A DNA stretch of 64,000 nucleotides. It comes from an uncultured Myxococcales bacterium (GTDB lineage: Bacteria; Myxococcota_A; UBA9042; CAIXZC01). The stretch lies in contig CAITUV010000048.1 of NCBI GenBank assembly GCA_903895725.1, forward strand, positions 8,474-72,473, read 5' to 3'. Numbering within the stretch: position 1 is the stretch's first letter; every line of letters starts with the position of its first letter. Below are positions 35,269 to 48,890 of the stretch, piece after piece. A program made the translations under genes and the position numbers. Below the pieces are notes generated by a model that saw only the letters and a program-made list of their open reading frames with translations, made no database searches and was not told where the DNA came from.

Positions 35269-35279
35269 CGGGGCCGCCT

Positions 35280-35304
35280 CATCGATTGCGCCCCATCGAT
35301 TGCG
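35280..35304 (+). promoter_or_regulatory. Direct repeat CATCGATTGCG x2 (14-bp periodicity, each containing a palindromic ATCGAT core) between nuoN and the zinc-ribbon gene. Possible regulator binding site.
   Basis: Read directly from the sequence. Confidence 0.15.
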
Positions 35305-35367
35305 ATTCCCTCCGCCTTCACGATGCGCTACACTACGAGACGGGACGCCAGCCGGGGGGAGGTGAGG

Positions 35368-35745
35368 ATGATCGTTCTGACCGTGCGATGCCCTCATTGC
35401 GGAGCCGACCTGATGGACAACGACAACCGGATGGACGGGGTTCCGTCGATTCGCCTGGCAACCTCCAGCTCGCTGGGGAACCGTGACATCGGACTGTCCG
35501 CCGTGTACGGCAGCTTCCAGGTTCGCTCCCAGCGTCAGATGACATCCGGGGAGACGGTGTTGTTCGCTTGTCCGACGTGCAGGAGGCAGTTGCTGTTTCC
35601 GGAGGGCTGTCCCCAATGCGAGGCGACGCTCGTTCGTCTCGAGCTCATCATAGGAGGCCATGTCGTGTTCTGCTCGCGCCGTGGGTGCAAGTTCCACCGC
35701 CTGGACGTGTCCGACCGGTCACGTCTCGCCGAGCTGATGCGCTAG
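35368..35745 (+). CDS. Small zinc-ribbon protein (four CxxC-type pairs). Unknown function.
   Basis: 'MIVLTVRCPHCGADL...FACPTCRRQLLFPEGCPQCEATL...FCSRRGCKF'. Strong RBS GGGGGGAGGTGAGG before ATG 35368. An alternative in-frame ATG exists at 35323. Confidence 0.6.
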   Translation: MIVLTVRCPHCGADLMDNDNRMDGVPSIRLATSSSLGNRDIGLSAVYGSFQVRSQRQMTSGETVLFACPTCRRQLLFPEGCPQCEATLVRLELIIGGHVVFCSRRGCKFHRLDVSDRSRLAELMR

Positions 35746-35770
35746 ACTTCACATTGACCGGGAGGAGAAG

Positions 35771-37348
35771 TTGAGCTTCAAGGATGACGATGGAGTAGGA
35801 CCGCAGAGCAGCGGGGGTGAATCAGCGGCCTCGTCGGCCGACGAGGGATCGGCAACAGGAAGGCGCAGGCGGCGCCGCCGGAAGGGGAGGGGGCGCACTG
35901 CGGAAGGGGAGGCCGGTTCCGTGCAGGCAACCGATCCCCCTGCCGGCAACGCCCCGGCCGCAGCCGACGAGTTGGCGCAGGACAGTTGGGACATCGACGA
36001 ATTTCGCGTGCCGCCCGCCCCGGGCAAGATGCGCTTCCACGACCTCGAGCTTCCCTTGGAAATGATGCACGCCATAGCGGACCTCGGATTCGAGTACTGC
36101 ACTCCCATCCAGGCTGCGGCGCTCCCCGTGGCGCTCGCAGGACGGGACGTCTTCGGCCGGGCTCAGACCGGTACCGGAAAGACCGCAGCGTTCCTGATCT
36201 CGCTGCTCGTCCGGCTGCTGCAGCATCCCCCCGAGGGACGCCGGCGCAAGGGGACGCCCAGGGCTCTGATCCTGGCCCCCACCCGGGAGCTCGTGATGCA
36301 GATCCATGCCGATGCCCTGGCACTCGGCTCCTACCTTCCCCAGCACGTCCTGGCCGTGTTCGGAGGCATGGACTACAACCGCCAGGAGCAGGCGCTCAAG
36401 GCGCTCCCGGTCGACATCCTCGTGGCCACGCCCGGCCGACTCCTCGACTTCAAGCGACGGCACATCATCGAGCTCTCCGAGGTGGATTCCCTCGTCATCG
36501 ACGAGGCCGACCGGATGCTCGACATGGGGTTCCTTCCCGACGTGTCCAACATCATCCGGAGCACGGCCCCCAGGGAGCAGCGCCATACCATGCTGTTCAG
36601 CGCCACGCTGACACCGGAAGTGCGTCGCCTGGCGTCGCAGTGGACTCGAGACCCCATCCAGATCGACATCGAGCCGACCCAGGTCGCAGTGGATACCGTC
36701 GAGCCGGTGACCTACATCGTGACCGATGCCGAGAAGCTTACCGTGCTGGTCAACCTCGTGAAGAAGCGGGAGCTGACCCGAGTGCTCGTCTTCTGCAATC
36801 GACGCGATCAGACGGCCCGCATCTGCGATCATCTGCAGGCCTACGGAATCGAGGCCGAGCAGATTTCCGGCGACGTGCCGCAGAAGACCCGAGTCACGAC
36901 TCTGGGCCGCTTCCGGCAAGGGGACGTGCGGGTGCTCGTCGCAACCGACGTGGCTGCCAGGGGGATTCACGTCGACGGCATCAGCCACGTGGTGAACTAC
37001 GACCTGCCGGAGAATCCGGAGGACTACGTCCATCGGATCGGCCGGACCGGGAGAGCCGGGGAGCATGGCACGTCCATCAGCTTCGCGTCGGAGACGGACG
37101 CGTTCTACGTGGAGCCCATCGAGGCCTTCATCGGCCGTCCGCTGCCACGCACGTTCCCGGATGAGGCCGAGCTGCTCGAGCCGTTGCCCCCGCCGCTGCG
37201 ACCGCTGAAGGAGCGGGAGCGACGCCGAGGCCGGGATGATGGACGTCCGGGAGGGCGGAGCGGAAGACCGGGCGGGAGCCGCATGGGCGGGCGCGATGGC
37301 AGCCGCAGCAGCGGGCGCACCGGGAGCTTCAGGAAGCGGGGGCGTTAG
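35771..37348 (+). CDS. DEAD-box ATP-dependent RNA helicase (RhlE/RhlB-like) with Arg/Gly-rich N- and C-terminal tails.
   Basis: 'AQTGTGKT' (motif I), 'PTREL', 'VIDEADRMLDMGF' (DEAD), 'SAT', 'HRIGRTGRAG'. TTG start after GGGAGGAG. Confidence 0.9.
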   Translation: MSFKDDDGVGPQSSGGESAASSADEGSATGRRRRRRRKGRGRTAEGEAGSVQATDPPAGNAPAAADELAQDSWDIDEFRVPPAPGKMRFHDLELPLEMMHAIADLGFEYCTPIQAAALPVALAGRDVFGRAQTGTGKTAAFLISLLVRLLQHPPEGRRRKGTPRALILAPTRELVMQIHADALALGSYLPQHVLAVFGGMDYNRQEQALKALPVDILVATPGRLLDFKRRHIIELSEVDSLVIDEADRMLDMGFLPDVSNIIRSTAPREQRHTMLFSATLTPEVRRLASQWTRDPIQIDIEPTQVAVDTVEPVTYIVTDAEKLTVLVNLVKKRELTRVLVFCNRRDQTARICDHLQAYGIEAEQISGDVPQKTRVTTLGRFRQGDVRVLVATDVAARGIHVDGISHVVNYDLPENPEDYVHRIGRTGRAGEHGTSISFASETDAFYVEPIEAFIGRPLPRTFPDEAELLEPLPPPLRPLKERERRRGRDDGRPGGRSGRPGGSRMGGRDGSRSSGRTGSFRKRGR

Positions 37349-37417
37349 GGGGCCCGGAGGGTAGCATCACAGGCAGGCTATCGTTCTGGATTCCACCGGC
37401 GGGACCGCACCAGCCGA

Positions 37418-38392
37418 TCAGGACTCAGCGGACTTTCTCGACGACAGCCTCAGCGCGTCCATCACCCTCAAGTTTGCCACCGCGTCCTGAACAGGCCAGC
37501 GAGGGCTCGAACGTCCGGTGCAGGCATCGACGAAATCCGCAACCTGGAGGCTGTAAGAGTTGCTGCCGGCAACCCGGATCAACCGGTCCTCCTGGCCATG
37601 GCGCTGCAGCCGGATGGAAGCCTCATCGTCCCCCGGGTGCCAGGGGCTGTCGAGCACGAAAGAGCCGGTGGTTCCCTGAATCACGGCCTGGTGCCGCTCC
37701 GCGCTCCGGATGCTCGTGAAGAAGCGTGCCAGGACTCCGTTGGGGAATTGGAGGATGCCGGTCATCGAATCATCCACCTGGGCTCCGACCGACGCCGCCT
37801 CCACGCGACTTGGCTCACAACCGGCAACTCGTCGCGAGAGGTTGATGCAGTAGCAGCCCACGTCGGCAAGAGCACCTCCTCCGAGCTCCGCCGAATCCAC
37901 GATGGAGCCCGGCTCGTCCAGCAGGAAGGAGAACACGCTGTCCATGGCGACGACCGAACCGATGAGCCCCGAATCGAGCAGCTCGAACAGGCGGGTGTAG
38001 ACCGGATGGTGTCGGTACATGAAGGCCTCGACGACCACACGACCCGACCGGCGTGCGGCGGCTTCGATTTCCTCGGCCTCCCGAACATCGAGGGCAAGCG
38101 GCTTCTCGCACAGAACATGCAGTCCCGCCTCGAGGGAGCGAACGGCCCACTCCCGGTGCAATGAGTTCGGAAGGGGGATGTACACCGCGTCCACGTCACC
38201 GCTCGAGATCAGGGCGTCGTAGGAGGCAAACGCAGCCGGAATTCCGTATCGGGCGGCAAATGTCCGGGCTCGATCGCCAGTCCGGCTCGCCACCGCAGTC
38301 AGACAGGAGCCCGAGTGTCCCACGATGGCGGGAATCATTCGTTCACAGATGGATGCGGTGCCCAGAATCCCCCAGCGCAGTTGTCGGCTCAC
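37418..38392 (-). CDS. Gfo/Idh/MocA-family NAD(P)-dependent oxidoreductase
   Basis: 'LRWGILGTASICERMIPAI...EKPLALDVREAEEI'. A GTG at 38392 (minus strand) is preceded by GGAGGAGG. The track ORF to 38467 lacks an RBS. Confidence 0.8.
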   Translation of the reverse strand: MSRQLRWGILGTASICERMIPAIVGHSGSCLTAVASRTGDRARTFAARYGIPAAFASYDALISSGDVDAVYIPLPNSLHREWAVRSLEAGLHVLCEKPLALDVREAEEIEAAARRSGRVVVEAFMYRHHPVYTRLFELLDSGLIGSVVAMDSVFSFLLDEPGSIVDSAELGGGALADVGCYCINLSRRVAGCEPSRVEAASVGAQVDDSMTGILQFPNGVLARFFTSIRSAERHQAVIQGTTGSFVLDSPWHPGDDEASIRLQRHGQEDRLIRVAGSNSYSLQVADFVDACTGRSSPRWPVQDAVANLRVMDALRLSSRKSAES

Positions 38393-38530
38393 GGCGGCCT
38401 CCTCCGGTGCACGTCGATGGACGGAGGACGGGATGGCAAAGGCTTGCCCGTTCTCCGTGCGGTGCATCTCGTCAGCGGCAATCTACTTCCCGGCCGCTCC
38501 GGGCGCAAGCGGGAACGCTGCCGTGGACAG

Positions 38531-38554
38531 CCGTTTCCGCTTGACACGAAACGG
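38531..38554 (+). promoter_or_regulatory. Inverted repeat CCGTTTC-(10)-GAAACGG with a perfect TTGACA hexamer in its loop, in the divergent intergenic region between the oxidoreductase and hisG.
   Basis: Perfect 7-bp stem. The TTGACA has no good -10 partner. Confidence 0.2.
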
Positions 38555-38610
38555 GCCGAATGCACACACTTGGCTCCTGGAAGGCGGCTCTAGACCGTGA
38601 AGGAGGCCCC

Positions 38611-39486
38611 ATGGGACCGACCGCGCAATCTGATACCATTCACCTTGCCATCCCGAAGGGGCGCATGCAGGCGGGGGTTGTGAAACTGCTGGAGGATGCC
38701 GGAATCGAGGTTCGGGGAATCTCCAGCCGAGGGTACCGGCCCAGCATCTCGCTGCCCGGGTTCTCGGTGAAGCTCCTCAAGCCCCAGAATATCGTGGAGA
38801 TGCTGCACATGGGGACCCGCGACGTGGGGTTTGCCGCTGCCGACTGGGTCGCGGAGCTCGAGGCCGACGTGGTTGAGCTCCTGGATACCGGGCTCGATCC
38901 GGTCCGCATCGTGGCAGCGGCGCCTCCGGACCTCGTGAACCAGGGGGTGGAGAAGGGCATTCGCGTGATTGCGTCGGAATACGAGCAGCTCACGCGTACG
39001 TGGATGGCGGGGCGCGGACTGAGTGCCACGCTCGTCCGCTCTTACGGAGCTACCGAGGTCTTTCCGCCCGAGGATGCCGATGCCATCGTCGACAACACCG
39101 CAAGCGGTGATACGCTGCGGGCCAACAACCTGGTGATCTTCGACGAGCTGATGAAGTCGAGCACCCGGCTGTATGCGAGCCGCAAGGCGACGTTGAATCC
39201 CACCAAGAAAGAGGCCCTCGACCGACTGGTCCTGCTGCTCCGGTCCGTGCTCGAGGCCCGTCGGCGGGTCATGGTGGAAGTCAACGTGAGCGAGGAGTGC
39301 CTCGAAGCCGTGATTGCGGTGCTGCCGTGCATGCGGGAGCCGACCATCTCGACCCTTCGGGGGGAGGGCGGATACGCGGTGAAGGCGGCCGTGCCCAGGG
39401 AGTTGCTGGCCACCGTGATTCCGGAGATCCGAGCTCGGGGCGGGACGGATATCGTGGTCAGCACGCTGGCTCAGCTCGTGGCCTGA
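38611..39486 (+). CDS. hisG: ATP phosphoribosyltransferase (long form)
   Basis: RBS GAAGGAGG before ATG 38611. 'IHLAIPKGRMQAGVVKLLEDAGIEV'. C-terminal regulatory domain present. Confidence 0.9.
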   Translation: MGPTAQSDTIHLAIPKGRMQAGVVKLLEDAGIEVRGISSRGYRPSISLPGFSVKLLKPQNIVEMLHMGTRDVGFAAADWVAELEADVVELLDTGLDPVRIVAAAPPDLVNQGVEKGIRVIASEYEQLTRTWMAGRGLSATLVRSYGATEVFPPEDADAIVDNTASGDTLRANNLVIFDELMKSSTRLYASRKATLNPTKKEALDRLVLLLRSVLEARRRVMVEVNVSEECLEAVIAVLPCMREPTISTLRGEGGYAVKAAVPRELLATVIPEIRARGGTDIVVSTLAQLVA

Positions 39487-39495
39487 GGTGGGGGA

Positions 39496-41220
39496 ATGGT
39501 CGAGCGCTCCAAAGGGTTGAGGCCACGGCTTCCGGGACTGGCCGCCGGTTCGTATCGCCCGCCGTTTCGGGCACCGCACGTGAGCCTCGTGCTGGACGGT
39601 AACGAGGGGCAGGCACCGCCGATCGACCTGGGGCAACTCCTGGCCGGGGCCGGACCCGAGGCCGTGCGACGGTACCCCAACGCTCGGAGGCTCGAGGAGC
39701 TGCTGGCTTTGCGTCACGGGCTTCGCCCCGAGAACGTGCTGGCCACCGCAGGGGCGGACGATGCTCTGGACCGTTGCCTCCGGGCCTACGCCGGTCCGGG
39801 AAACCCCGTGGTTGCCGCCCGGCCGACCTTCGAAATGGTGGTGCGCTACGCCCGGCTTGCTCGTGCCGAGGTACGCGAGGTGCCCTGGACCGATGGCCCG
39901 TTCCCCCGGGAGGGGTTCATCCGGGCGGCCGGCCGCGATGCGGGCGTGCTTGCCGTCGTGACGCCGAACAACCCGACCGGGCTGGTAGCCTCGGCATCGG
40001 ACCTGAGCGCACTGTCGGCGGCGGTTCCTGAGGCCCTGCTTCTCGTGGACCTCGCGTACGGTGATTTTGCGGACGAGGACCTGACGGCTGCGGCATTGGC
40101 CCTACCCAATGCCGTGGTGTTGCGCTCGTTCTCCAAGGCTGGTGGGCTGGCTGGGCTCAGGAGCGGCTATGCTCTTGGCCCGGAGGAGGTCATCGGGGTG
40201 CTGCGGGCAGCGGGCCAGCCCTACGCATTGTCCATGCCGGCCATCCGGGTGACCGAGGCCCTGCTTGGCCTCGGGAATTCGGATCCCACGGGGTACGTTT
40301 CCGCCGCCCGGGCCGAGCGGGTCAGACTGAACGAGGTGACCGCCGAGCTGGGGTTGAGTCCGCTCCCATCCCAGGCCAACTTCGTCTGCTGCATCACGCC
40401 CCGTGCCCGCAGGATACACGCCGGCCTGATGTCTCTGGGGATCTCGGTTCGTCACTTTGCCGGCCGGGAAGGCATGGAGAGCTACCTGCGCATCACCTGT
40501 CCCGGACGTGAGCAGGATATGGATAGACTGGAGGCCGCCCTCCGGACCGTCGTCACTCCGGAGGCTCTGCTGTTCGACATGGACGGCGTGCTGGCCGACG
40601 TATCCGGCAGCTACCACGAGGCGATTGTGGCTGCCGCCGCATCGTTCGGAATCACGGTGGATTCCGCCATGATTCGCGAGGCAAAGCAGCAGCCCGGAGC
40701 GAACAATGATTGGGTCGTGACGCAGCGCCTGCTCGCTGCCCAGGGATGCCAGGTCACTCTCGACGAGGCCAAGGACCGTTTCGAGGCCGCGTACCAGGGG
40801 ACTTTCGATGCCCCGGGGCTGTGGACGCGTGAGACCTTGCTGCCCCGCATGGAACTGCTCGTCGAGCTGTCGAAGCGGATGCCACTGGGAATCGTCACGG
40901 GTCGGCCGCGTTACGACGCAGAACGGTTCCTCGAGCGAACGGGAATCGGGTCGCTCTTTGCGACCGTTGTGTGCATGGAGGATGCTCCGCTGAAGCCAGA
41001 TCCGGCCCCCGTTCGACTGGCCTTGAGCCGGCTGGGAGTGAGTCGGGCCTGGCTCGTCGGGGACACACCGGACGACCTCGTCGCCGCCCGAGGCGCGGGG
41101 GTGCTGCCTCTTGCCGTGCTGCCTCCGGCTGCAAAACCCGGAATCCGGGAGCGACTGGCTGCAGCCGGGGCTGCCGAGGTGATGGAATCGCTTGAACCCT
41201 TGATGGAGATGATCGCATGA
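39496..41220 (+). CDS. hisC: Histidinol-phosphate aminotransferase fused to a C-terminal HAD-superfamily phosphatase (putative histidinol-phosphatase)
   Basis: N-terminal half is a class I/II aminotransferase ('VTPNNPTG', PLP-Lys 'SFSKAGGLAGLRSGY'). C-terminal approximately 210 aa is a HAD domain ('LLFDMDGVLAD', 'GDTPDD'). One uninterrupted 574-codon ORF. Confidence 0.85.
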   Translation: MVERSKGLRPRLPGLAAGSYRPPFRAPHVSLVLDGNEGQAPPIDLGQLLAGAGPEAVRRYPNARRLEELLALRHGLRPENVLATAGADDALDRCLRAYAGPGNPVVAARPTFEMVVRYARLARAEVREVPWTDGPFPREGFIRAAGRDAGVLAVVTPNNPTGLVASASDLSALSAAVPEALLLVDLAYGDFADEDLTAAALALPNAVVLRSFSKAGGLAGLRSGYALGPEEVIGVLRAAGQPYALSMPAIRVTEALLGLGNSDPTGYVSAARAERVRLNEVTAELGLSPLPSQANFVCCITPRARRIHAGLMSLGISVRHFAGREGMESYLRITCPGREQDMDRLEAALRTVVTPEALLFDMDGVLADVSGSYHEAIVAAAASFGITVDSAMIREAKQQPGANNDWVVTQRLLAAQGCQVTLDEAKDRFEAAYQGTFDAPGLWTRETLLPRMELLVELSKRMPLGIVTGRPRYDAERFLERTGIGSLFATVVCMEDAPLKPDPAPVRLALSRLGVSRAWLVGDTPDDLVAARGAGVLPLAVLPPAAKPGIRERLAAAGAAEVMESLEPLMEMIA

Positions 41221-41804
41221 GCCGACCGCCTGTCACGCTGCGACGAAGGACACTGGAGACGGATGTGCAGGTCACCCTGGGCCTGGACGGAACGGGCCGG
41301 GCCGAAGTTTCGAGCGGCCTGGGTTTCCTGGATCACCTGCTCACGTCTCTGGCACGCCACGCACATTTCGACCTGTCGCTGACCTGCGCCGGGGATTTGA
41401 AGGTGGATGATCACCACTCGGTGGAGGATTGCGGCCTGGCATTGGGGCAGGCTCTGGACCAGGCGCTCGGCGAGCGGAAGGGAATTGTGCGCTTCGGACA
41501 CGCCTACGCCCCCCTGGACGAGGCCTTGTGCCGGGCCGTCGTGGACCTTTCGGGGCGATCGTACGCTGCCATTGACCTGAGCCTGCAACGCCCGAGCATC
41601 GGGGATGTGGCCGCCGAGAACGTGGGGCATTTCTTCCACTCCCTGGCCATGGCATCCCGAAGCTGCTTCCACCTGTCCGTGATTGCCGGGACGAACGACC
41701 ACCACCGCGCCGAGGCAGCCGCCAAGGCGCTTGCTCTGGCCCTTCGGCAGGCCGTCGGACTGGACGGGGGTACTGAGACACCGAGCACCAAGGGAGTGCT
41801 CTGA
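41217..41804 (+). CDS. hisB: Imidazoleglycerol-phosphate dehydratase (monofunctional)
   Basis: 'LDHLLTSLARHAHFDL...HHSVEDCGLALGQAL'. 195 aa, no phosphatase domain. ATGA overlap with hisC. Confidence 0.9.
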   Translation: MSRPPVTLRRRTLETDVQVTLGLDGTGRAEVSSGLGFLDHLLTSLARHAHFDLSLTCAGDLKVDDHHSVEDCGLALGQALDQALGERKGIVRFGHAYAPLDEALCRAVVDLSGRSYAAIDLSLQRPSIGDVAAENVGHFFHSLAMASRSCFHLSVIAGTNDHHRAEAAAKALALALRQAVGLDGGTETPSTKGVL

Positions 41805-42418
41805 TGGGGCTCAGGACCGTGGTGGTCGCGACGGGGACGGCCAACCTTGCGTCGGTGTTGGCCGGATTGCGGCGTGCGGGGGCAGACCCGGTGCTGGCCT
41901 CCGCTCCCTCCGAGGTCAGGGACGCTGCCGCCGTCGTGCTTCCTGGAGTAGGGGCATTGGCCGCCGCCATGCGGACGCTCGAAGCCGACGGGATGGTCGA
42001 GCCTCTACGCGAAAGGCTGCGAGCCGGGGGGCCCACGTTGTGCGTCTGTCTGGGGCTGCAGCTTCTCGCTGACGGATCCGAGGAGAGTCCCGGCGTTGCT
42101 GCACTGCGTGTCGTACGAGGGATGGCCCTGCGGTATCCCGAAACAGTTCGGGTCCCCCAGATGGGGTGGAACCGCGTCGAGCCGGATGGCGGTTGCAGCC
42201 TGCTCGCACCGGGGTGGGCATACTTTGCCAATTCCTTTCGGCTGGTCGAGGCCCCGGACGGCTGGTCCGTGGCCTGGAGCGATCACGCAGGCCCGTTCGT
42301 GGCGGCCATGGAGCGAGGTCCGGTGCTTGCCTGCCAGTTCCACCCGGAGCTTTCTGGCGAGCTGGGCAAGGCCTTGCTGAGCAGGTGGGTCGACAGGGCG
42401 GCCCGGGGAGGTGCATGA
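41804..42418 (+). CDS. hisH: Imidazole glycerol phosphate synthase, glutaminase subunit
   Basis: '[10 protein letters not shown]' catalytic Cys. 'FHPE' motif. Confidence 0.9.
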
Positions 42419-43176
42419 TGCTTGCCGCTCGAATCATCCCGTGCCTGGACGTACGTGATGGACGGGTGGTCAAAGGGATCCGGTTCCAGGGTCTGCGGGA
42501 TGCCGGCGATCCGGTCGCCCTGGCTGCCGAGTACGAAGCGCAGGGAGCCGACGAGCTCATCCTGCTGGATGTCTCGGCGACACCCGAAGGCCGGGGGGCC
42601 GCTCTGGACACCGTGGCTCGCGTCCGGAGCCAGCTTTCCATCCCCCTTTGCGTGGGAGGCGGAGTCCGGCAGGTCAGCGATGCCAGAGACCTGCTGTCGG
42701 CCGGTGCGGACAAGGTCGGTACGAACACAGCGGCCGTCGAGCGGCCGGAGCTCCTTTCCGAGCTGGCGGAGCGGTTTGGGCGTCAATGCACGATCCTCGC
42801 CATCGATGCTGCAAGGCGTGCGGAAGGGGACGGCTGGGAGATCGTCGTGCTGTCGGGGCGGCGGCGCACCGGGATCGACGCTGTCGAGTGGGCCCGCAAG
42901 GCGGTGTCCCTCGGGGCCGGCGAGATTCTGCTGACGGGGTGGGACAGGGACGGAACGAGGCTCGGCTACGACCTGGAGCTCGTGCGCGCAGTGAGCCAGG
43001 CCGTGCCGGTCCCCGTCATTGCGTCGGGGGGGGCAAGCACTCCCGAGCACCTGCTCGAAGGGCTGAGGGCGGGAGCCTCCGCCGTCCTGGCCGCTTCCAT
43101 CTTCCACTACGGGGAAACGACGGTGGCCTCGCTCAAGGATTTCCTGGCTGCCCGAAACATCGAGGTTCGGCGATGA
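42415..43176 (+). CDS. hisF: Imidazole glycerol phosphate synthase, cyclase subunit
   Basis: '[17 protein letters not shown]...'. (beta/alpha)8 HisF signature. ATGA overlap with hisH. Confidence 0.9.
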
Positions 43177-44447
43177 TCGTTCCATCCATCGACCTGGCCG
43201 GCGGAAGGACCGTGCAGCTCGTCGGCGGTCGTGATTTTGCACTCGAGGCCGGGGACCCTCGCCCCATTGCCGAACGGTTTGGCGTGGTGGGGGAAGTTGC
43301 AGTCATCGATCTCGATGCGGCCCTGGGGAAGGGAAGCAACGCCGGGCTCATCGAGGACGTGTGTCGCATCGCACGATGCCGCGTCGGAGGGGGAATCCGG
43401 AGCTTGGAGGTCGCCCGCAAATGGCTGGACAGCGGGGCCGAGAAGATCATCCTCGGCACGGCCGCAACTCCCGAGCTGCTGCGGGAGCTGCCACGGGAGC
43501 GCCTGATTGCGGCCCTCGATGCCCGAGACGGAGAGGTCGTGGTCGAGGGCTGGACCCGGGGAACCGGGGCCCGCATCCTGGAACGGATCGAAGCGCTGGC
43601 TCCCTATGTGAGCGGCTTCCTGGTCACGTTCGTCGAGCTGGAGGGGCGGCTGGGCGGGACGGCCATGGACCGGGTGCAGGCCATCGTGCGGGCCGCCGGG
43701 AAGGCCCGTGTCACGATCGCCGGAGGAATCACGACGGCCGAGGAAGTTGCCGAGCTCGACCGACTCGGTGCGGATGCCCAGGTCGGAATGGCCCTGTACA
43801 CCGGTCGCCTGACATTGGCCGACGCGTTCATGGCACCACTGACTTCGGACAGGCCCGACGGGCTCTTTGCTACGGTCGTGTGCGATCCGCGGGGCGGGGC
43901 TCTGGGGCTAGCATGGTCGAGTCGGGAGAGCCTGGCCAACGCGATCGAGACCCGCCGGGGAGTGTACCATTCCCGGCGGCGGGGGGTGTGGGTGAAAGGG
44001 GAGTCCTCGGGGGCCGTGCAGCGTCTGTTGGAAATCGCCCCCGACTGCGACCGGGATGCCTTGCGGTTCACGGTGGTCCAGGCACCTCCAGGCTTCTGCC
44101 ACGAGGAGCGGTGGTCCTGCTTCGGGCCCGAACGGGGCCTCGACCGGCTCGCGGCCACGCTGCGTGAGCGCCTGTCGTCGGCTCCGGCCGGGTCCTATTC
44201 GGCTCGGTTGTTCTCGGACCCGCAGCTCCTCAAGGCGAAGCTGATCGAGGAAGCGGGGGAGCTTGCCGAAGCCTCCGACCCGGCCCACGTCGGGGAAGAG
44301 GCGGCCGACCTCCTGTTCTTCGCTCTGGCAGCCATGTCGCGGGCAGGGATTGGGGTTGCAGACGTGGAGAAGATCCTCGATCGCCGGGCCCTGAAGGTCA
44401 GCCGACGGCGAGGGGATGCCAAGCCTCGGCCTGACGACGCTGGCTGA
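43173..44447 (+). CDS. hisA: Trifunctional HisA-HisI-HisE fusion (ProFAR isomerase + PR-AMP cyclohydrolase + PR-ATP pyrophosphatase)
   Basis: N-terminal '[19 protein letters not shown]' (HisA). Middle '[17 protein letters not shown]...[12 protein letters not shown]' (HisI). C-terminal '[11 protein letters not shown]...[14 protein letters not shown]' (HisE). A single 424-codon ORF. ATGA overlap with the hisF stop. Confidence 0.85.
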
Positions 44448-44466
44448 GCTCAGGGACGCGTGATGG

Positions 44467-44496
44467 GGGCCGGACGAGAGCGTTCCGGTCCGGCCC
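44467..44496 (+). terminator. Strong intra-operon hairpin GGGCCGGAC-(12)-GTCCGGCCC followed by 'GCTTTG', between hisAIE and hisD.
   Basis: Perfect 9-bp GC-rich stem. It may be a partial terminator, an attenuator or an mRNA-stability element. Confidence 0.3.
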
Positions 44497-44527
44497 GGCT
44501 TTGAAGTAGTCATCGGGAGGCAGGTAC

Positions 44528-45799
44528 ATGAGCGGCTCGGTGCTGCGCAGGGTAGGGGCTGGCGAGGTCGAAGCGCTTCGAAGAAATGCCGTGGATCCGC
44601 GGGCGCTTGCCATTGCCTCCGAGATCGTGTTGAGGGTGGAGCGTGGTGGGTTCGAAGCCGCCGTTCTCGAGGCTCGCCGCCTTGGGGACCTCCCGGACGG
44701 TGCTCCGCCGATCCTCGATGCCGCCGCCTGCAGGGCCGCACTGCTGGCGCTGCCAGGGGAGCAGCGCTCTCTCCTGGAACGAACCGCCTCTAGGATCCGG
44801 GAGTTTGCGTCAGCGCAGCGCAGAGCGTTGATTTCCATGTCCGTGAGCGTGCCGGGCGGTACCGCCGGACACGAGGCCGTTCCGGTCGAGACCGCAGGCT
44901 GCTACGCACCGGGGGGGCGGTTTCCGCTGCCTTCGTCGGTGCTGATGACCGCAGTGACCGCACGGGTCGCCGGGGTGGAGAAGGTGTGGGTGGCTTCCCC
45001 GAAGCCGACTGCCGTCACGATGGCCGCGTGCGCCGTGGCGCAGGCCGACGGGCTCGTGACGTTCGGAGGGGCTCAGGCCGTCGCCCTGCTGGCTCTCGGC
45101 GGCGGCCCCGTGCCCCGCTGCGACGTGATCGTGGGTCCGGGAAACGCGTACGTGACCGCCGCCAAGTACCTGGTTTCCGCCTATGCGGGAATCGACATGC
45201 TGGCAGGACCTTCGGAGCTGGTCGTGGTGGCCGACGGGAGTGCCCGGCCTGACGTGATCGCGATGGATCTGTTGGCCCAGGCCGAGCACGATCCGGATGC
45301 CCTGCCGGTGCTGGTTGTGTTCGATGAGCGGGTTGCCATGGAAGTCGAGCGGGCATTGGCCGAGGCCCTTGCGGAGCTCGACACTCGGGAGACTGCATCG
45401 GCCTCCATCGCCAGGGGGTTCTGGGTGCTGGCCGACTCGATGGAGCAGGCTGCCTCCGTCTGCAATGCTCTGGCACCGGAGCATCTGCAGCTCTCCATGG
45501 CGGATCCGGCGGGCCTCCGATCCCTGTTGCGTCACTACGGGGCGCTCTTCCTGGGGGACGGTGCCTGCGAAGTCCTGGGGGACTACGGCATCGGGCCCAA
45601 TCATGTGCTGCCGACAGGCGGCGCCGCCCGACGCTCCGGAGGGCTGTCGGTGTTCAGCTTTCTGAGGCTGCGAACCTGGTTGCGGGTGGAAGATTCTCTT
45701 GCCGCGGACCCGGTGCTGGCGGACGCAGAGGCATTGGCGAAGCTGGAGGGGCTGTCGGCGCACTCGTTGGCGGCTTGGCTCAGGCGGCTCCCGAGCTGA
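44528..45799 (+). CDS. hisD: Histidinol dehydrogenase
   Basis: RBS GGGAGG. 'DMLAGPSELVVVAD...QAEHDP...GPNHVLPT'. Confidence 0.9.
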   Translation: MSGSVLRRVGAGEVEALRRNAVDPRALAIASEIVLRVERGGFEAAVLEARRLGDLPDGAPPILDAAACRAALLALPGEQRSLLERTASRIREFASAQRRALISMSVSVPGGTAGHEAVPVETAGCYAPGGRFPLPSSVLMTAVTARVAGVEKVWVASPKPTAVTMAACAVAQADGLVTFGGAQAVALLALGGGPVPRCDVIVGPGNAYVTAAKYLVSAYAGIDMLAGPSELVVVADGSARPDVIAMDLLAQAEHDPDALPVLVVFDERVAMEVERALAEALAELDTRETASASIARGFWVLADSMEQAASVCNALAPEHLQLSMADPAGLRSLLRHYGALFLGDGACEVLGDYGIGPNHVLPTGGAARRSGGLSVFSFLRLRTWLRVEDSLAADPVLADAEALAKLEGLSAHSLAAWLRRLPS

Positions 45800-45816
45800 A
45801 GGTGCGCAAGCCGACC

Positions 45817-45834
45817 GCCGGAAGGGGCCCCGGC
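45817..45834. terminator. Short GC hairpin (GCCGG-aaggggcc-CCGGC, containing a GGGGCCCC palindrome) between the convergent hisD and purH stops. Candidate bidirectional terminator.
   Basis: Read from the sequence. Only a 5-bp stem. Confidence 0.2.
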
Positions 45835-45835
45835 C

Positions 45836-47428
45836 TCAGTGACTGAAGTGCCTGGTGCCAATGAAGACCATGCGAATGTCCAGCTCGTCACAGCGGCGGA
45901 TCACTGCCTTGTCCCGGATGGACCCCCCGGGCTGGAACACGTTGCGAACCCCGGCCATGGCACATTGCTCGATGCTGTCCGCGAACGGGAAGAACCCGTC
46001 GGATACGAGGTAGGATTCCGAGAGTCGGGCAGACACGTAGGCCTCATCCCCTTCTCGTCGGAGGTTTTCGGCGGCCTTGCCCAGCGCCAGCTTCGTGGAA
46101 TCCACCCGGTTGGGCTGACCGCACCCCATTCCCAGGAGCTGGCACACTCCGTCAGGTCGTCGGCGGACCAGGGCGATGGCGTTGGAGCGGAGCTGACGGG
46201 CCGCGATGACGCCGAAGGCCAGCAGCTCCTCGTCCAGGGAATCGAGCCGGGCTCGAGTCACCAGCTCCAAGCGTTCCCAGAGCACCGAGTCCGTCTGCTG
46301 GGCGAGCAGCGCTCCATGGAGATGCCTTCGCACGGTGGGCGCCCGCAGGGAGGCACAGTCGAACCGCACGATCCTCAAGGATTCGAGCCCTCTGAGCCAG
46401 GCAGCGGCATCCGGAGTGAAATCGGGTGCGCAGACCACTTCGACGAGCCGCCGCTGCGACTTGTCCGGCGAGTCGAGACGGAAAGCCGCAACGCACTCCC
46501 GGTCCACCGGACGGTTCCATGCCACGATTCCCCCGAACGCCGAGAGCGGGTCACCGTCCCAGGCAGCGGCGAGAAGAGACGAGGCGCTTCGTCCCATGGC
46601 CAGGCCGCACGGGTTCTGGTGCTTGACCACGGCACATCCGGGGGCCGGAAGATCCTTGACCGCGTCAAGCGCTGCCTGGAGATCGGTCATGTTGTTGTAG
46701 GACAGAGGTTTGCCTCCGAGAAGCTCGATGTCGGCCACCGAGGTGGCCGCGTTCCGCTCCCGGAAGAGCCATGCCTCCTGGTGCGCATTCTCGCCGTACC
46801 GAAGCGTGCTCCCCCGCTCGAAGGACAGACGGAGGGAACGCACGCCATGACGCGCGTCAAATGCTGAGGCAATGCTCGCGTCATAGTCGGCTACTCGGTG
46901 GAAGGCTTCGAGCATGAGCCGGTCCCGCGTGCGGCGAGACAGGGCACCTCCGGACGAGTCCAGCTCCGAGGCCAACGGCGCATACTGGGCGGGGGACGTG
47001 GCAACCGCAACGAACTCGTGGTTCTTGGCCGCGGCCCGCACCATCATCGGGCCCCCGATGTCGACCTGCTCGACCAGCGCAGCCAGATCGTCTCCCCGTG
47101 CCGCCGCCGCCTCGAACGGGTAGAAGTTGCAGACCACGAGGTCGATGGGCAGAACGCCGAGCGCCGTTGCCTCCTCCGCGTCCCGCTCCCGGTGGAAGAG
47201 GAGGGATGCGGCCAGGGCAAATGAGAGGCTCTTCATTCGGCCCCCGAAGGCCTCTGAGTGGCCCGTGAGCGCACCGATGTCCGCCACCGGGTACCCGGCA
47301 CTGCGTAGATGGCGGGCCGTCCCTCCGGTCGAGAAGAGCTCGCACCCATGGCGCACCAGCACCTCCGCCAGCTCGAGGAGGCCCGACTTGTCCCAGACAC
47401 TGATCAAGGCTCGACGGATCTTCATCAT
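45836..47428 (-). CDS. purH: Bifunctional AICAR transformylase / IMP cyclohydrolase
   Basis: 'MMKIRRALISVWDKSGLLELAEVL...' MGS-like N-terminus. 'GGIVAWNRPVD', 'SDGFFPFADSIE' AICARFT motifs. Confidence 0.9.
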   Translation of the reverse strand: MMKIRRALISVWDKSGLLELAEVLVRHGCELFSTGGTARHLRSAGYPVADIGALTGHSEAFGGRMKSLSFALAASLLFHRERDAEEATALGVLPIDLVVCNFYPFEAAAARGDDLAALVEQVDIGGPMMVRAAAKNHEFVAVATSPAQYAPLASELDSSGGALSRRTRDRLMLEAFHRVADYDASIASAFDARHGVRSLRLSFERGSTLRYGENAHQEAWLFRERNAATSVADIELLGGKPLSYNNMTDLQAALDAVKDLPAPGCAVVKHQNPCGLAMGRSASSLLAAAWDGDPLSAFGGIVAWNRPVDRECVAAFRLDSPDKSQRRLVEVVCAPDFTPDAAAWLRGLESLRIVRFDCASLRAPTVRRHLHGALLAQQTDSVLWERLELVTRARLDSLDEELLAFGVIAARQLRSNAIALVRRRPDGVCQLLGMGCGQPNRVDSTKLALGKAAENLRREGDEAYVSARLSESYLVSDGFFPFADSIEQCAMAGVRNVFQPGGSIRDKAVIRRCDELDIRMVFIGTRHFSH

Positions 47429-47489
47429 GGTCGCAGATTAACTCCAGGAGCAGGAAACTTCAAGGTCACACGGGGGCGAGACGTGGTCC

Positions 47490-47508
47490 GCCACGGGGAG
47501 GCCGTGGC
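47490..47508 (-). terminator. Hairpin GCCACGG-ggagg-CCGTGGC between the lipoprotein gene and purH (minus strand).
   Basis: Perfect 7-bp stem. Confidence 0.2.
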
Positions 47509-47528
47509 CCGAAACGAGCAGCAGGCGA

Positions 47529-48890
47529 TTAGAACGTGTAGACCACGGTGGTCGTGTGCGAGCCGACGGAGATGGTCACGTTGTCCACGACCCCTTCGGC
47601 ACCGCCCGGAATGTAGAAGCTTGCTGTGCCCGTGGCATCGGACAGCGGAGACTCGCTCTTGGTGTAGCCGTCGGTCCCGACGATGCTGAAATTGATGGTG
47701 CAGCCCGGGATCGGGGGAATCGTTGAGGCCGTGACCGTGACTCCTTCGCCCGGGCCCGGGTCGACCGGGTTGGGGGTCGCACTGACGCCGGAAACCTGCT
47801 CGCACGTGCCGAACTGGGAGGGATCGGCCGGAGTGACCGTCGGCGGTCCAGGGGGAGTTCCGGTGTTCGGATCACCCGGCTCGAAGTCGACCACGACGAC
47901 CTGGCCGCCATCCACGCCGAAGTCCTCGATCACGATGGGCTCCTTCCCCTCGACCTGGATGATCAGCGTCCCCTTTCCCGGGAACTGGAGAGGCACGACC
48001 TCACCGACCTTCCCTTCGTGGGTCTGCATCGTGCAGTAGCCGCCGTCGACGCTGTCGCTCTTGCCACCGCTGCAGTAGCTCCACAGGAATTTCACGCCCA
48101 GGCCGATCGCCGCAGCGCCCAGGATGGTACCTCCGACCAGCACGCCTCCGGATGCACCGGCAAGCACGAGGCCGGCCTTGACCACGAATCCGCCCGCCAC
48201 CGTAGAGCCGGCAGCCAGACCGGTCCCGACTGCGTCGAGCGTCTGCGTCTTCTTCAGCTCGTTGACCGCCTGGTAGTACTGATCGTCGTCGATCCGCCCT
48301 TCGTCATGCGCCTTTTCGAGCTTGGCAATCTTCTCCTTGGTCGTTCCGATGAGCTGGCCGACGTTGAAGGGAAGGGTCACTGGCACGCCCGGCACGGTCA
48401 GGATGGGGCCGTCCGCCTTGCCCATGGAGTCGCCCTTGTACCCGGCAAACTGCTTGGCATAGCCGTTGAGGGTCAGGACCGAAACCAGCCACTGGTCGCC
48501 GGCGGCGTTGACCGCCTTGGTCTTCTCGATGAACGTGGCGACGTCGGACGTGTCGGCCATGGCAAACACCTGGTACGCCTCGATGAAGTCCTTGTTGGAG
48601 GACAGGACCTGTCCGGCAGCAGTCTGGTAGGCGGTCACGAGCTCGGGCAGGGAGCCGGTCTGCGGCACCTGGACCTCGGGCAGCGTCACCCCCTCGGGAG
48701 GAGTGAACGAAGTGTCCGCGGTTCCCACTACGTCGACCCCGGGCGGAACGACCAGGGAATCGGGCTCTCCGACCACGTCGTACGTGTTCTCGAAGACGTC
48801 GGAGCCTTCGAAGAGCCAGTCGCAGCCGGTGCCGGAAATGGCGAGGAGAGCACTCACGCTCAACAGGAGAACGGTCTTGGCAATGTTCAT
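47529..48890 (-). CDS. Lipoprotein with a central glycine-zipper hydrophobic segment and a C-terminal Ig-like (Big-type) domain
   Basis: Strong RBS GAAGGAGGTGA before 'MNIAKTVLLLSVSALLAISGTGC'. 'GLAAGSTVAGGFVVKAGLVLAGASGGVLVGGTILGAAAIGLGV' (GxxxG-rich). The track ORF to 49001 overextends. Confidence 0.75.
   Translation of the reverse strand: MNIAKTVLLLSVSALLAISGTGCDWLFEGSDVFENTYDVVGEPDSLVVPPGVDVVGTADTSFTPPEGVTLPEVQVPQTGSLPELVTAYQTAAGQVLSSNKDFIEAYQVFAMADTSDVATFIEKTKAVNAAGDQWLVSVLTLNGYAKQFAGYKGDSMGKADGPILTVPGVPVTLPFNVGQLIGTTKEKIAKLEKAHDEGRIDDDQYYQAVNELKKTQTLDAVGTGLAAGSTVAGGFVVKAGLVLAGASGGVLVGGTILGAAAIGLGVKFLWSYCSGGKSDSVDGGYCTMQTHEGKVGEVVPLQFPGKGTLIIQVEGKEPIVIEDFGVDGGQVVVVDFEPGDPNTGTPPGPPTVTPADPSQFGTCEQVSGVSATPNPVDPGPGEGVTVTASTIPPIPGCTINFSIVGTDGYTKSESPLSDATGTASFYIPGGAEGVVDNVTISVGSHTTTVVYTF

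What the first reader, a model, noticed from the sequence alone, without database searches (positions are those of the whole stretch)
43173..44447. Trifunctional HisA-HisI-HisE fusion and non-canonical his gene order
ProFAR isomerase, PR-AMP cyclohydrolase and PR-ATP pyrophosphatase are encoded as one 424-codon ORF. The gene order is hisG, hisC-HAD, hisB, hisH, hisF, hisAIE, hisD. That is, hisF precedes hisA and hisD comes last. HisIE fusions are common, but adding HisA is not. The fusion joins the steps immediately before (HisE, HisI) and after (HisA) the ring-opening in one polypeptide.
Basis: seen in the sequence. Interest (0 to 1): 0.55.

Follow-up and report, generated by a model that had tools for sequence, protein, structure and literature searches.

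The report
HisA-HisI-HisE fused histidine enzyme
A real, conserved bacterial gene fuses three consecutive histidine-synthesis enzymes; it is common and already noted in print, but its operon lines up with the giant histidine proteins of amoebae and suggests that the unexplained front end of fungal HIS4 is a decayed HisA domain.

Summary
Window 43173-44447 (+) is one uninterrupted 424-codon ORF. It carries a HisA barrel (aa 1-220), HisI (about 224-320) and HisE (about 321-410). It sits in the gene order hisG, hisC-HAD, hisB, hisH, hisF, hisAIE, hisD.

It is not an artefact. The identical protein occurs on at least 10 independent contigs. All 80 loci kept from species-representative genomes encode it, and 80 of the 82 loci examined carry a single ORF. 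Nearly all have the same gene order.

The claim of rarity fails. Tool searches found the fusion in Myxococcota, Phycisphaerae, Gemmatimonadota, Acidobacteriota and Geminicoccaceae. Papers report it in silico in some Gammaproteobacteria and Spirochaetia, in a few archaeal assemblies, and inside the Acanthamoeba heptafunctional His protein.

Catalytic motifs of all three domains are invariant. One family-specific change stands out: TFVExEGR, where Glu157 replaces the beta6 Asp of canonical HisA.

The best reading is an active trifunctional enzyme for pathway steps 2-4, rigidly joined without a linker.

A new lead emerged. The gene order H-F-AIE-D is collinear with amoebozoan and apusomonad H-F-A-I-E-D-G proteins. 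Bacterial A-I-E-D fusions exist. The "unknown" N-terminal domain of fungal HIS4 is homologous to this HisA domain.

The parts
38560..39486 (+). hisG, long-form ATP phosphoribosyltransferase with the C-terminal regulatory domain. The true start may be the ATG at 38611.
   Evidence: Pfam HisG 7.1e-32 plus HisG_C 8.1e-19. TIGR00070 and TIGR03455 score above their cutoffs.
39496..41220 (+). hisC fused to a HAD-IA hydrolase (TIGR01548-like), the probable histidinol-phosphate phosphatase
   Evidence: Pfam Aminotran_1_2 at aa 59-345 and HAD_2/Hydrolase at aa 356-537. TIGR01548 scores 130 bits, just under its cutoff of 140. The phosphatase role is inferred.
41217..41804 (+). hisB (IGP dehydratase only, no HisN domain)
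   Evidence: Pfam IGPD 5.2e-57
41804..42418 (+). hisH (glutaminase subunit of IGP synthase)
   Evidence: Pfam GATase 4.7e-12. Gene call in L001.
42418..43176 (+). hisF (cyclase subunit of IGP synthase); its stop codon overlaps the hisAIE start
   Evidence: TIGR00735 scores 329 bits against a cutoff of 294.6. Gene call of 252 aa. ATGA overlap.
43173..43832 (+). HisA (ProFAR isomerase) domain, aa 1-220, a complete (beta/alpha)8 barrel
   Evidence: Pfam His_biosynth 1.4e-36. The best NCBIfam hits are HisA equivalogs. The best PDB sequence hit is HisA 4wd0, E 1e-18. The AlphaFold model has 8 strand/helix units and pLDDT of about 90. D7, GGGIR 72-76, D116, GW 126-127, TFVExEGR 152-159 and AGG 183-185 are invariant in the family.
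43815..43877 (+). HisA/HisI junction (aa 215-235, [21 protein letters not shown]): no flexible linker
   Evidence: This is the most conserved segment of the protein (0.74 pairwise identity). Its length is invariant at 36-37 aa for the stretch aligned to aa 205-240 in 79 homologs. pLDDT is 93-96.
43842..44132 (+). HisI (PR-AMP cyclohydrolase) domain, aa 224-320
   Evidence: Pfam PRA-CH 8e-23. It aligns with the HisIE structure 6j22 from its residue 10. D291, C292, D293, D295, C309, H310 and C316 are invariant.
44133..44447 (+). HisE (PR-ATP pyrophosphohydrolase) domain, aa 321-424, plus the stop codon
   Evidence: Pfam PRA-PH 3.8e-15. TIGR03188 scores 56 bits against a cutoff of 42.7. E359, E360, E363, E376 and D379 are invariant.
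44448..44527 (+). 80-nt spacer between hisAIE and hisD, with a 9-bp GC hairpin (44467-44496) and a GGGAGG ribosome-binding site for hisD
   Evidence: Sequence. The fold is -28.7 kcal/mol but no better than shuffles, z 0.07. It is probably not a specific element.
44528..45799 (+). hisD (histidinol dehydrogenase), the last gene. In some relatives it is fused in frame to hisAIE.
   Evidence: Pfam Histidinol_dh 3e-113. Fused A-I-E-D proteins in bacteria.

Best explanation
The ORF encodes an active trifunctional enzyme that carries out three consecutive steps of histidine biosynthesis. HisE converts PR-ATP to PR-AMP. HisI opens the ring to give ProFAR. HisA converts ProFAR to PRFAR by an Amadori rearrangement. 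PRFAR then goes to HisH/HisF, encoded just upstream. The domains are joined head to tail through a short, rigid, highly conserved junction, so the protein is built as one unit rather than as beads on a string. By analogy with solved HisI, HisE and HISN2 dimers, it probably dimerises through the HisI/HisE part, with a HisA barrel on each side. The gene is translationally coupled to hisF inside a conserved operon type, G-C(-HAD)-B-H-F-AIE-D. Shown here: the domain content, the conservation of catalytic motifs, the conservation of the fusion and of the operon, and a confident compact model. Inferred: the enzyme activities, the oligomeric state, and any benefit from fixed 1:1:1 stoichiometry or passing of intermediates between active sites.
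For: - All three domains pass the Pfam gathering scores.
- The best NCBIfam and PDB sequence matches for aa 1-220 are HisA rather than HisF. A separate, canonical hisF lies upstream (329 bits against a cutoff of 294.6).
- No other HisA/HisF paralog exists in the 64-kb window, so this domain is the operon's only candidate for step 4.
- Catalytic and ligand-binding residues are invariant across 52-79 homologs of 59-83% identity. In HisA: D7, D116, E157, GGGIR, AGG. In HisI: DCDxD, CH and C. In HisE: EE..E and E..D.
- The HisA domain is as conserved as HisI (0.66 each) and more conserved than HisE (0.56). The junction is the most conserved part (0.74) and has a fixed length.
- The AlphaFold model has pLDDT 90.2 and pTM 0.86. 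Its only weak loop, 156-161, is the beta6 active-site loop.
- 80 of 82 related loci have a single uninterrupted ORF; the other two run off their contigs.
- The same gene order recurs in nearly all loci.
- The identical protein occurs on at least 10 independent contigs.
Against: - No enzymology exists for any stand-alone bacterial member.
- HisA and HisIE score below the NCBIfam equivalog cutoffs: 151 against 243, and 106 against 187. The domains are therefore divergent.
- The beta6 acid of canonical HisA, the Asp in TDxxxDG, is Glu157 here, and the preceding Asp is Phe153. I recall that yeast His6 has a DVEG at this place, which would be a precedent for Glu, but I did not verify that here.
- Substrate channelling is pure inference. 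The model tool gives no coordinates, so I could not measure the distance between active sites.
- The rest of the genome was not available, so a second hisA elsewhere cannot be excluded.
Confidence: 0.85

Rival explanations
1. The HisA-like domain is a catalytically dead scaffold, as appears to be the case in fungal HIS4. The real ProFAR isomerase would then be encoded elsewhere in the genome.
For: Decayed HisA-derived domains in front of HisIE do exist in fungal HIS4. The HisA domain scores below the NCBIfam equivalog cutoffs, and Glu replaces the beta6 Asp.
Against: In the fungal relics GGGIR, TFVExEGR and AGG are lost and identity is about 30%. Here these motifs are invariant and the domain is as conserved as HisI. 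The operon has every other step but no other hisA.
Confidence: 0.06
2. The single ORF is an assembly or sequencing artefact (a lost stop codon or a frameshift) that joins separate hisA and hisIE genes.
For: None found.
Against: The identical protein is on at least 10 contigs from independent assemblies. 80 of 82 loci from other species have the same uninterrupted ORF. The junction is the best conserved segment and has a fixed length.
Confidence: 0.01
3. The HisA domain is a dual-substrate PriA-like isomerase (HisA plus TrpF activity), so the fusion also serves tryptophan synthesis.
For: PriA structures (1vzw, 2x30, 5dn1) are among the better PDB sequence hits, E about 3e-14. TIGR01919 hisA-trpF gives a weak hit, 61 bits.
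Against: The TIGR01919 score is far below its cutoff of 306 and below the plain HisA models. The tight embedding in a his operon and the fusion to HisIE argue for a dedicated role. Presence or absence of trpF in the genome could not be checked.
Confidence: 0.05

Closest known systems
Acanthamoeba castellanii heptafunctional His protein (1682 aa; Rice et al. 2018, PMC6029752) and the Thecamonas trahens homolog
   Same: It contains HisA-HisI-HisE in the same order, with the same family motif TFVEREG. Its domain order H-F-A-I-E-D matches the window's gene order hisH-hisF-hisAIE-hisD.
   Different: It is a eukaryotic single polypeptide that also contains HisH, HisF, HisD and HisG. In the window these are separate genes in an operon.
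Bacterial HisA-HisI-HisE-HisD fusions, e.g. Candidatus Palauibacter polyketidifaciens 864 aa, annotated 'histidinol dehydrogenase'
   Same: Same A-I-E module, same upstream operon G-C-B-H-F, 49-55% identity to the protist query P0149.
   Different: There hisD is fused in frame. In the window it is a separate gene 80 nt downstream with its own ribosome-binding site.
Fungal HIS4 (PRA-CH / PRA-PH / histidinol dehydrogenase with an N-terminal region of unknown function; Fani et al. 2007, PMC1963479)
   Same: The order is [N-terminal domain]-HisI-HisE-HisD. The HisIE part is about 50% identical to the window protein, and the junction motif DRPDGL is shared. The N-terminal domain is homologous to the window's HisA domain: hhalign 98.3-99.2%, E 1e-14 to 1e-19. 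Its predicted barrel has HisA as top PDB match.
   Different: The fungal N-terminal domain has lost GGGIR, TFVExEGR and AGG and is only about 30% conserved, so it is presumably inactive. Fungi use a separate HIS6. HisD is fused.
Bifunctional HisIE (E. coli/Shigella HisIE, PDB 6j22; plant HISN2, PDB 7bgm)
   Same: HisI then HisE in one chain, with the same metal-binding motifs.
   Different: There is no HisA domain. The window protein replaces the first ~9 residues of HisIE with a whole barrel. Its score is below the PRK02759 cutoff.
Stand-alone HisA (TIGR00007 / PRK13585; PDB 4wd0, 5a5w, 1qo2)
   Same: (beta/alpha)8 barrel, beta1 Asp, beta5 Asp, and two phosphate-binding glycine motifs.
   Different: It is about 20 residues shorter. 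The beta6 motif is TFVExEGR with Glu in place of Asp. It is covalently attached to HisIE and scores below the equivalog cutoffs.

Membership tests
HisA, ProFAR isomerase (Pfam PF00977; NCBIfam TIGR00007/PRK13585) | (beta/alpha)8 barrel fold | tested here: met
   The AlphaFold model shows eight strand-helix units in aa 1-220 with pLDDT about 90. Pfam His_biosynth covers profile positions 1-227 of 228.
HisA, ProFAR isomerase (Pfam PF00977; NCBIfam TIGR00007/PRK13585) | Catalytic Asp on beta1 and conserved Asp on beta5 | tested here: met
   D7 (PSID) and D116 (ALDAR) align with the corresponding Asp of HisA 4wd0/4x2r. Both are invariant or nearly so in the family.
HisA, ProFAR isomerase (Pfam PF00977; NCBIfam TIGR00007/PRK13585) | Catalytic Asp on beta6 (TDxxxDG motif) | tested here: not met
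   The aligned residue is Glu157, in the invariant motif TFVExEGR. The first Asp of the motif is Phe153. This is a conservative acid-for-acid change that is fixed in the family.
HisA, ProFAR isomerase (Pfam PF00977; NCBIfam TIGR00007/PRK13585) | Two phosphate-binding glycine-rich sites | tested here: met
   GGGIR 72-76 and AGG 183-185 are invariant.
HisA, ProFAR isomerase (Pfam PF00977; NCBIfam TIGR00007/PRK13585) | Score above the curated family cutoff | tested here: inconclusive
   Pfam scores 126.6 against 23.6, so it is met. The NCBIfam equivalogs score 151 against 243 and 136 against 229, so they are not met.
HisA, ProFAR isomerase (Pfam PF00977; NCBIfam TIGR00007/PRK13585) | ProFAR to PRFAR isomerase activity | not testable with these tools
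   Needs an enzyme assay or complementation.
HisI, PR-AMP cyclohydrolase (PF01502) | Mg-binding DxDxD and Zn-binding Cys/His/Cys residues; score above cutoff | tested here: met
   D291, D293, D295, C292, C309, H310 and C316 are invariant. Pfam scores 80.5 against 27. The assignment of these residues to metal sites rests on my knowledge of HisI structures.
HisE, PR-ATP pyrophosphohydrolase (PF01503; TIGR03188) | MazG-like helical domain with EExxE and ExxD acidic motifs; score above cutoff | tested here: met
   E359, E360, E363, E376 and D379 are invariant. TIGR03188 scores 56 against 42.7 and Pfam 56.5 against 21.3. The model is helical over 322-406.
Trifunctional HisA-HisI-HisE fusion (as noted in PMC8102479 and within the Acanthamoeba protein, PMC6029752) | Domain order A-I-E in one uninterrupted chain, conserved across relatives | tested here: met
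   all 120 best database hits, at least 62 clusters at 50% identity, and 80 of 82 loci.
Fungal-type HIS4 | HisD fused C-terminally to HisIE; N-terminal domain without catalytic motifs | tested here: not met
   hisD is a separate gene (44528-45799) after a stop codon and an 80-nt spacer. The N-terminal HisA domain keeps its motifs. The protein is homologous to HIS4 but not a member.

The most novel reading that the evidence does not exclude
This bacterial operon type (H-F-AIE-D, with HisC-HAD) would be the prokaryotic counterpart, and probably the source, of the multi-enzyme histidine proteins of amorphean eukaryotes. These are H-F-A-I-E-D-G in Acanthamoeba and Thecamonas, and A-I-E-D-C-HAD in other Amoebozoa. 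On this reading fungal HIS7 (H-F) and HIS4 ([decayed A]-I-E-D) are fission products of such a collinear ancestor. The 160-220-residue N-terminal region of HIS4, reported in 2007 as having no detectable homolog or function, would be a decayed HisA barrel inherited from a HisA-HisIE fusion like the one in this window. I rate the homology itself at about 0.9. The direction (bacterium to eukaryote), the fission scenario, and the absence of a prior report are less certain. I found no paper stating this in the held library.
Probability: 0.55. Interest if true: 0.65.

Novelty: new member of a known kind. Interest (0 to 1): 0.45.

Why it matters
Three things follow.

1. Annotation. NCBI and JGI name these proteins only 'phosphoribosyl-ATP diphosphatase' or HisIE. 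The cause is that only the HisE domain model passes its cutoff. Hundreds of genomes from Myxococcota, Phycisphaerae, Gemmatimonadota and others will therefore appear to lack hisA in pathway reconstructions.

2. Enzymology. The protein is a compact, rigidly joined enzyme for three consecutive steps. It has a fixed Glu where HisA normally has the beta6 Asp. It occurs in at least one cultured species (Marinimicrococcus flavescens); a MAG assigned to Lujinxingia vulgaris also carries it. It is a convenient system for testing whether fusion brings channelling of the intermediates.

3. Evolution. The operon is collinear with eukaryotic His mega-proteins whose origin was left open in 2018. It also offers a concrete answer to what the orphan N-terminal domain of fungal HIS4 is. 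Bacterial A-I-E-D fusions contradict the 2007 statement that prokaryotes have no HIS4-like protein.

Tried and rejected
- Frameshift or assembly artefact: rejected.
- A regulatory RNA (his leader, T-box) in or around the operon: Rfam at E up to 0.1 found nothing in 35000-48000.
- Promoter and terminator scans: only weak consensus matches inside genes.
- The GC hairpin in the hisAIE-hisD spacer: it folds no better than shuffled sequence, z 0.07, so I do not propose a function.
- The long upstream extension of the ORF to TTG 42648 (599 aa): it lies in another frame of hisF and is not supported by any homolog, so the start is ATG 43173.
- Fungal HIS4 N-terminus derived from HisF rather than HisA: less likely, since hhalign gives 94.6% and E 6.5e-8 for HisF against 98.3% and E 1.2e-14 for HisA. 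Unrelated His proteins and shuffled or reversed alignments gave 4% or less.
- Long multi-His proteins (P0148, P0149, P0152) as read-through gene-call artefacts: P0149 comes from a eukaryote transcriptome collection (EukProt) and P0152's close relative P0424 (1595 aa, same domains) is named from Sexangularia; Acanthamoeba's megaprotein is cDNA-verified in PMC6029752.
- I did not verify from a database my recollection that yeast His6 has DVEG at beta6.
- The NJ tree has no support values and only midpoint rooting. I use it only as a hint.
Full report
**1. Observation**

Window 43173-44447 (+) is a single ORF of 424 codons plus a TGA stop, with no internal stop. Pfam places three domains in it:
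- His_biosynth at aa 1-213 (E 1.4e-36)
- PRA-CH at aa 246-317 (E 8e-23)
- PRA-PH at aa 324-405 (E 3.8e-15)

For aa 1-220 the best NCBIfam models are HisA equivalogs, not HisF. HisIE and HisE models cover the rest.

The surrounding genes are all on the + strand: hisG (long form), hisC fused to a HAD hydrolase, hisB, hisH, hisF, this gene, and hisD. The independent gene calls on an identical contig agree. hisF ends and hisAIE begins in an ATGA overlap, with GAGG 8 nt upstream. hisD follows after 80 nt with its own GGGAGG.

**2. It is not an artefact**

- The identical protein is recorded on at least 10 contigs from separate assemblies, with the same neighbours.
- All 120 best hits in the 5.8-billion-protein collection carry the same three Pfam domains and are 417-449 aa long.
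The best 80 all match query residues 1 to about 418 at 59-71% identity.
- I extracted the reading frames. 80 of 82 loci hold one uninterrupted ORF, and the two exceptions run off their contigs.

**3. It is not rare**

The record titles name several groups:
- Myxococcota, including Polyangia and Bradymonadales
- Planctomycetota (Phycisphaerae)
- Acidobacteriota
- Gemmatimonadales
- Geminicoccaceae, including the cultured Marinimicrococcus flavescens
- Bdellovibrionales

A full HMMER pass over 1.84 billion 50%-identity representatives gave 465 hits at E up to 1e-30. Among the best 150, my domain parsing found 62 complete A-I-E proteins, down to 34% identity, plus fragments.

The gene order G-C(-HAD)-B-H-F-AIE-D recurs in nearly all loci. 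Geminicoccaceae show a shorter G-B-H-F-AIE form. The 'non-canonical order' is therefore a conserved operon type.

**4. What is already in print**

- The reviews on his-gene fusions list hisD, N, B, H, F, I and E as fusion partners, but not hisA (PMC1963479; PMC10138114).
- A similarity network of HisI/HisE sequences noted trifunctional PRA-PH/PRA-CH/ProFAR-isomerase sequences in some Gammaproteobacteria and Spirochaetia. It placed them, plant HISN2 and fungal HIS4 near Myxococcales sequences (PMC8102479).
- A survey of archaeal fusions found HisA/F-HisIE in four assemblies (PMC11237513).
- Acanthamoeba has a cDNA-verified heptafunctional His protein that contains the isomerase next to HisIE (PMC6029752).

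The architecture is therefore known in silico. No stand-alone bacterial member has been characterised.

**5. Anatomy and likely mechanism**

Residue conservation was read from two alignments, one of 52 and one of 79 fused proteins. The following are invariant or nearly so:

| Domain | Conserved residues |
|---|---|
| HisA | D7; GGGIR 72-76; D116; G126-W127; T152-F153-V154-E155, E157-G158-R159; A183-G184-G185 |
| HisI | D291, C292, D293, D295; C309-H310; C316 |
| HisE | E359, E360, E363, E376, D379 |

Against solved HisA structures, D7 and D116 align with the beta1 and beta5 aspartates. Glu157 aligns with the beta6 Asp of the TDxxxDG motif, and the first Asp of that motif is Phe153. So the family has a fixed, conservative Asp-to-Glu change at the position that my knowledge of the S. 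enterica and M. tuberculosis enzymes identifies as the general acid.

The HisA domain is as conserved as HisI (0.66 mean pairwise identity each) and more conserved than HisE (0.56). The junction (aa 215-235) is the most conserved part (0.74) and does not vary in length. HisIE of Shigella aligns from its residue 10, so the barrel is attached almost directly to the first strand of HisI.

The AlphaFold model is confident, with pLDDT 90.2 and pTM 0.86. It shows eight strand-helix units and pLDDT of 93-96 across the junction. Its only disordered stretch is loop 156-161, the beta6 active-site loop.

The window holds no other HisA/HisF paralog, and the operon otherwise covers every step. I therefore read the protein as an active enzyme for steps 2, 3 and 4. 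It is made in fixed proportion and translationally coupled to HisF, which with HisH uses its product. The activities, the dimerisation through HisI/HisE and any channelling are inferred, not shown.

**6. Why annotation misses it**

HisA and HisIE models score below their NCBIfam cutoffs: 151 against 243, and 106 against 187. Only the HisE domain model passes, at 56 against 42.7. This matches the names given by NCBI and JGI: 'phosphoribosyl-ATP diphosphatase', or HisE/HisI only.

**7. Where the evidence led beyond the finding**

The representative search also returned longer proteins. Identified by name and by domain parsing, they are:

- (a) Bacterial A-I-E-D fusions of about 840-920 aa from Myxococcota, Phycisphaerales and Gemmatimonadota. 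In Candidatus Palauibacter the operon is G-C-B-H-F-[AIED], and the fusion translates as such in two assemblies.
- (b) A-I-E-D-C-HAD proteins of about 1500 aa from Amoebozoa (Sexangularia; Arcella's P0276, 1242 aa, parses as I-E-D-C only) and protist transcriptomes.
- (c) H-F-A-I-E-D-G proteins of about 1700 aa from Acanthamoeba castellanii and Thecamonas trahens.
- (d) Fungal HIS4.

Those of (a)-(c) that I parsed and that retain a HisA domain keep the TFVExEG motif, except the Sexangularia-type P0152/P0424, which read TAVHKEG. The domain order H-F-A-I-E-D is exactly the 'non-canonical' gene order of the window, and the HisC-HAD fusion is shared as well.

Fani et al. 2007 stated two things. First, no HIS4-like protein was found in prokaryotes. 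Second, the 160-220-residue N-terminal region of fungal HIS4 has no detectable homolog or known function.

I took the N-terminal regions of 55 named fungal HIS4 proteins and compared their profile with the HisA domain of 79 bacterial fusions:

| Comparison | hhalign probability | E-value |
|---|---|---|
| Fungal N-termini vs HisA domain (128 columns) | 98.3% | 1.2e-14 |
| vs HisF | 94.6% | 6.5e-8 |
| vs HisB, HisH, HisD, HisG | 4% or less | - |
| Column-shuffled or reversed alignments | 0.4% or less | - |

The tool's own profile comparison, which includes the shared DRPDGL junction, gave 99.2% and E 1.1e-19.

Many fungal sequences still begin M-[LFI]-[IV]-P-x-[LI]-[DN]-L, like the window's MIVPSIDL. 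An AlphaFold model of one such region (Actinomortierella wolfii) is confident, with pLDDT 91.4 and pTM 0.89. Its top PDB match is S. enterica HisA (E 2.5e-5, TM 0.61). Other ribulose-phosphate-binding barrels follow, including yeast His6 and HisF.

The phosphate-binding and catalytic motifs are gone, and conservation is only about 30%. The domain looks like a relic.

A rough neighbour-joining tree of the I-E region puts the eukaryotic sequences in one cluster among bacterial A-I-E(-D) proteins, next to the Myxococcota group that contains the window. The tree has no support values and is midpoint-rooted, so it is only a hint.

**8. Verdict**

The finding is real and its anatomy is as described. 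The gene belongs to a widespread bacterial family that has already been noticed but is under-annotated, so I class it as a new member of a known kind.

Its wider interest is evolutionary. It is the bacterial, operon-embedded form of a module that reappears inside eukaryotic His mega-enzymes. It also gives a specific, testable identity to the orphan N-terminal domain of fungal HIS4. I found no paper stating this in the held library, but I cannot exclude one elsewhere.

Noticed in passing
window 39496-41220 (+): hisC is fused to a HAD-IA hydrolase of the TIGR01548 type (130 bits, cutoff 140). This is probably the operon's missing histidinol-phosphate phosphatase, since hisB here has no HisN domain. 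The HAD part is present in about half of the related loci and is also fused to HisC in amoebozoan A-I-E-D-C-HAD proteins.
   Followed up: partly
window 43173-44447; proteins P0012, P0015, P0020, P0083, P0121: Public annotation names this family only 'phosphoribosyl-ATP diphosphatase' or HisE/HisI. The HisA and HisIE NCBIfam models fall below their cutoffs, so carriers will look as if they lack hisA.
   Followed up: yes
window aa 152-159 of the ORF (nt 43626-43649): The family-invariant beta6 motif is TFVExEGR where canonical HisA has TDxxxDGT. Glu157 replaces the catalytic Asp and Phe153 replaces the first Asp. Most eukaryotic mega-proteins I parsed keep the same motif; the Sexangularia-type proteins P0152/P0424 read TAVHKEG.
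   Followed up: partly
L083 and L084, 8001-10595: Candidatus Palauibacter polyketidifaciens (Gemmatimonadota) encodes a HisA-HisI-HisE-HisD protein of 864 aa at the end of a G-C-B-H-F operon. Many similar proteins exist in Myxococcota and Phycisphaerales. This contradicts the 2007 statement that prokaryotes have no HIS4-like protein.
   Followed up: yes
proteins P0420 (Acanthamoeba castellanii), P0463 (Thecamonas trahens), P0424 (Sexangularia), P0149: Eukaryotic His mega-proteins have domain orders H-F-A-I-E-D-G and A-I-E-D-C-HAD. The first is collinear with the window's gene order hisH-hisF-hisAIE-hisD.
   Followed up: partly
proteins P0260, P0266, P0298-P0415 (fungal HIS4), residues 1 to about 200: The N-terminal region of fungal HIS4, described as of unknown function, is homologous to the HisA domain of this fusion family. 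It is predicted to be a barrel with HisA as the top PDB match, but it has lost the catalytic and phosphate-binding motifs.
   Followed up: yes
proteins P0241, P0242, P0248, P0250, P0261, P0283 (about 420-480 aa): These proteins have a ~200-250-aa N-terminal region with no Pfam hit, followed by HisI-HisE and no HisD. The N-terminus is again HisA-like (hhalign 99.25% for the mixed set) but degenerate. Their organisms were not identified; they may be eukaryotic HIS4 fission products like S. pombe His7.
   Followed up: partly
window 44467-44496 (+): A 9-bp GC-rich hairpin lies in the 80-nt spacer between hisAIE and hisD. Its stability is no better than that of shuffled sequence (z 0.07), so it is probably not a specific element.
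   Followed up: yes
window 45836-47428 (-): purH (AICAR transformylase/IMP cyclohydrolase; Pfam MGS and AICARFT_IMPCHas in the gene call of the identical contig) converges on the end of the his operon. AICAR is the by-product of the HisH/HisF step, so the adjacency may be functional. It is conserved in the three contigs that carry the identical protein.
   Followed up: no
L036, L041, L043, L046, L047, L053, L056, L069, L079 (Geminicoccaceae and related): A shorter operon variant, hisG-hisB-hisH-hisF-hisAIE, has no hisC or hisD next to it. It is found in Alphaproteobacteria at 61-68% identity to the window protein, which suggests horizontal spread of the module between phyla.
   Followed up: no
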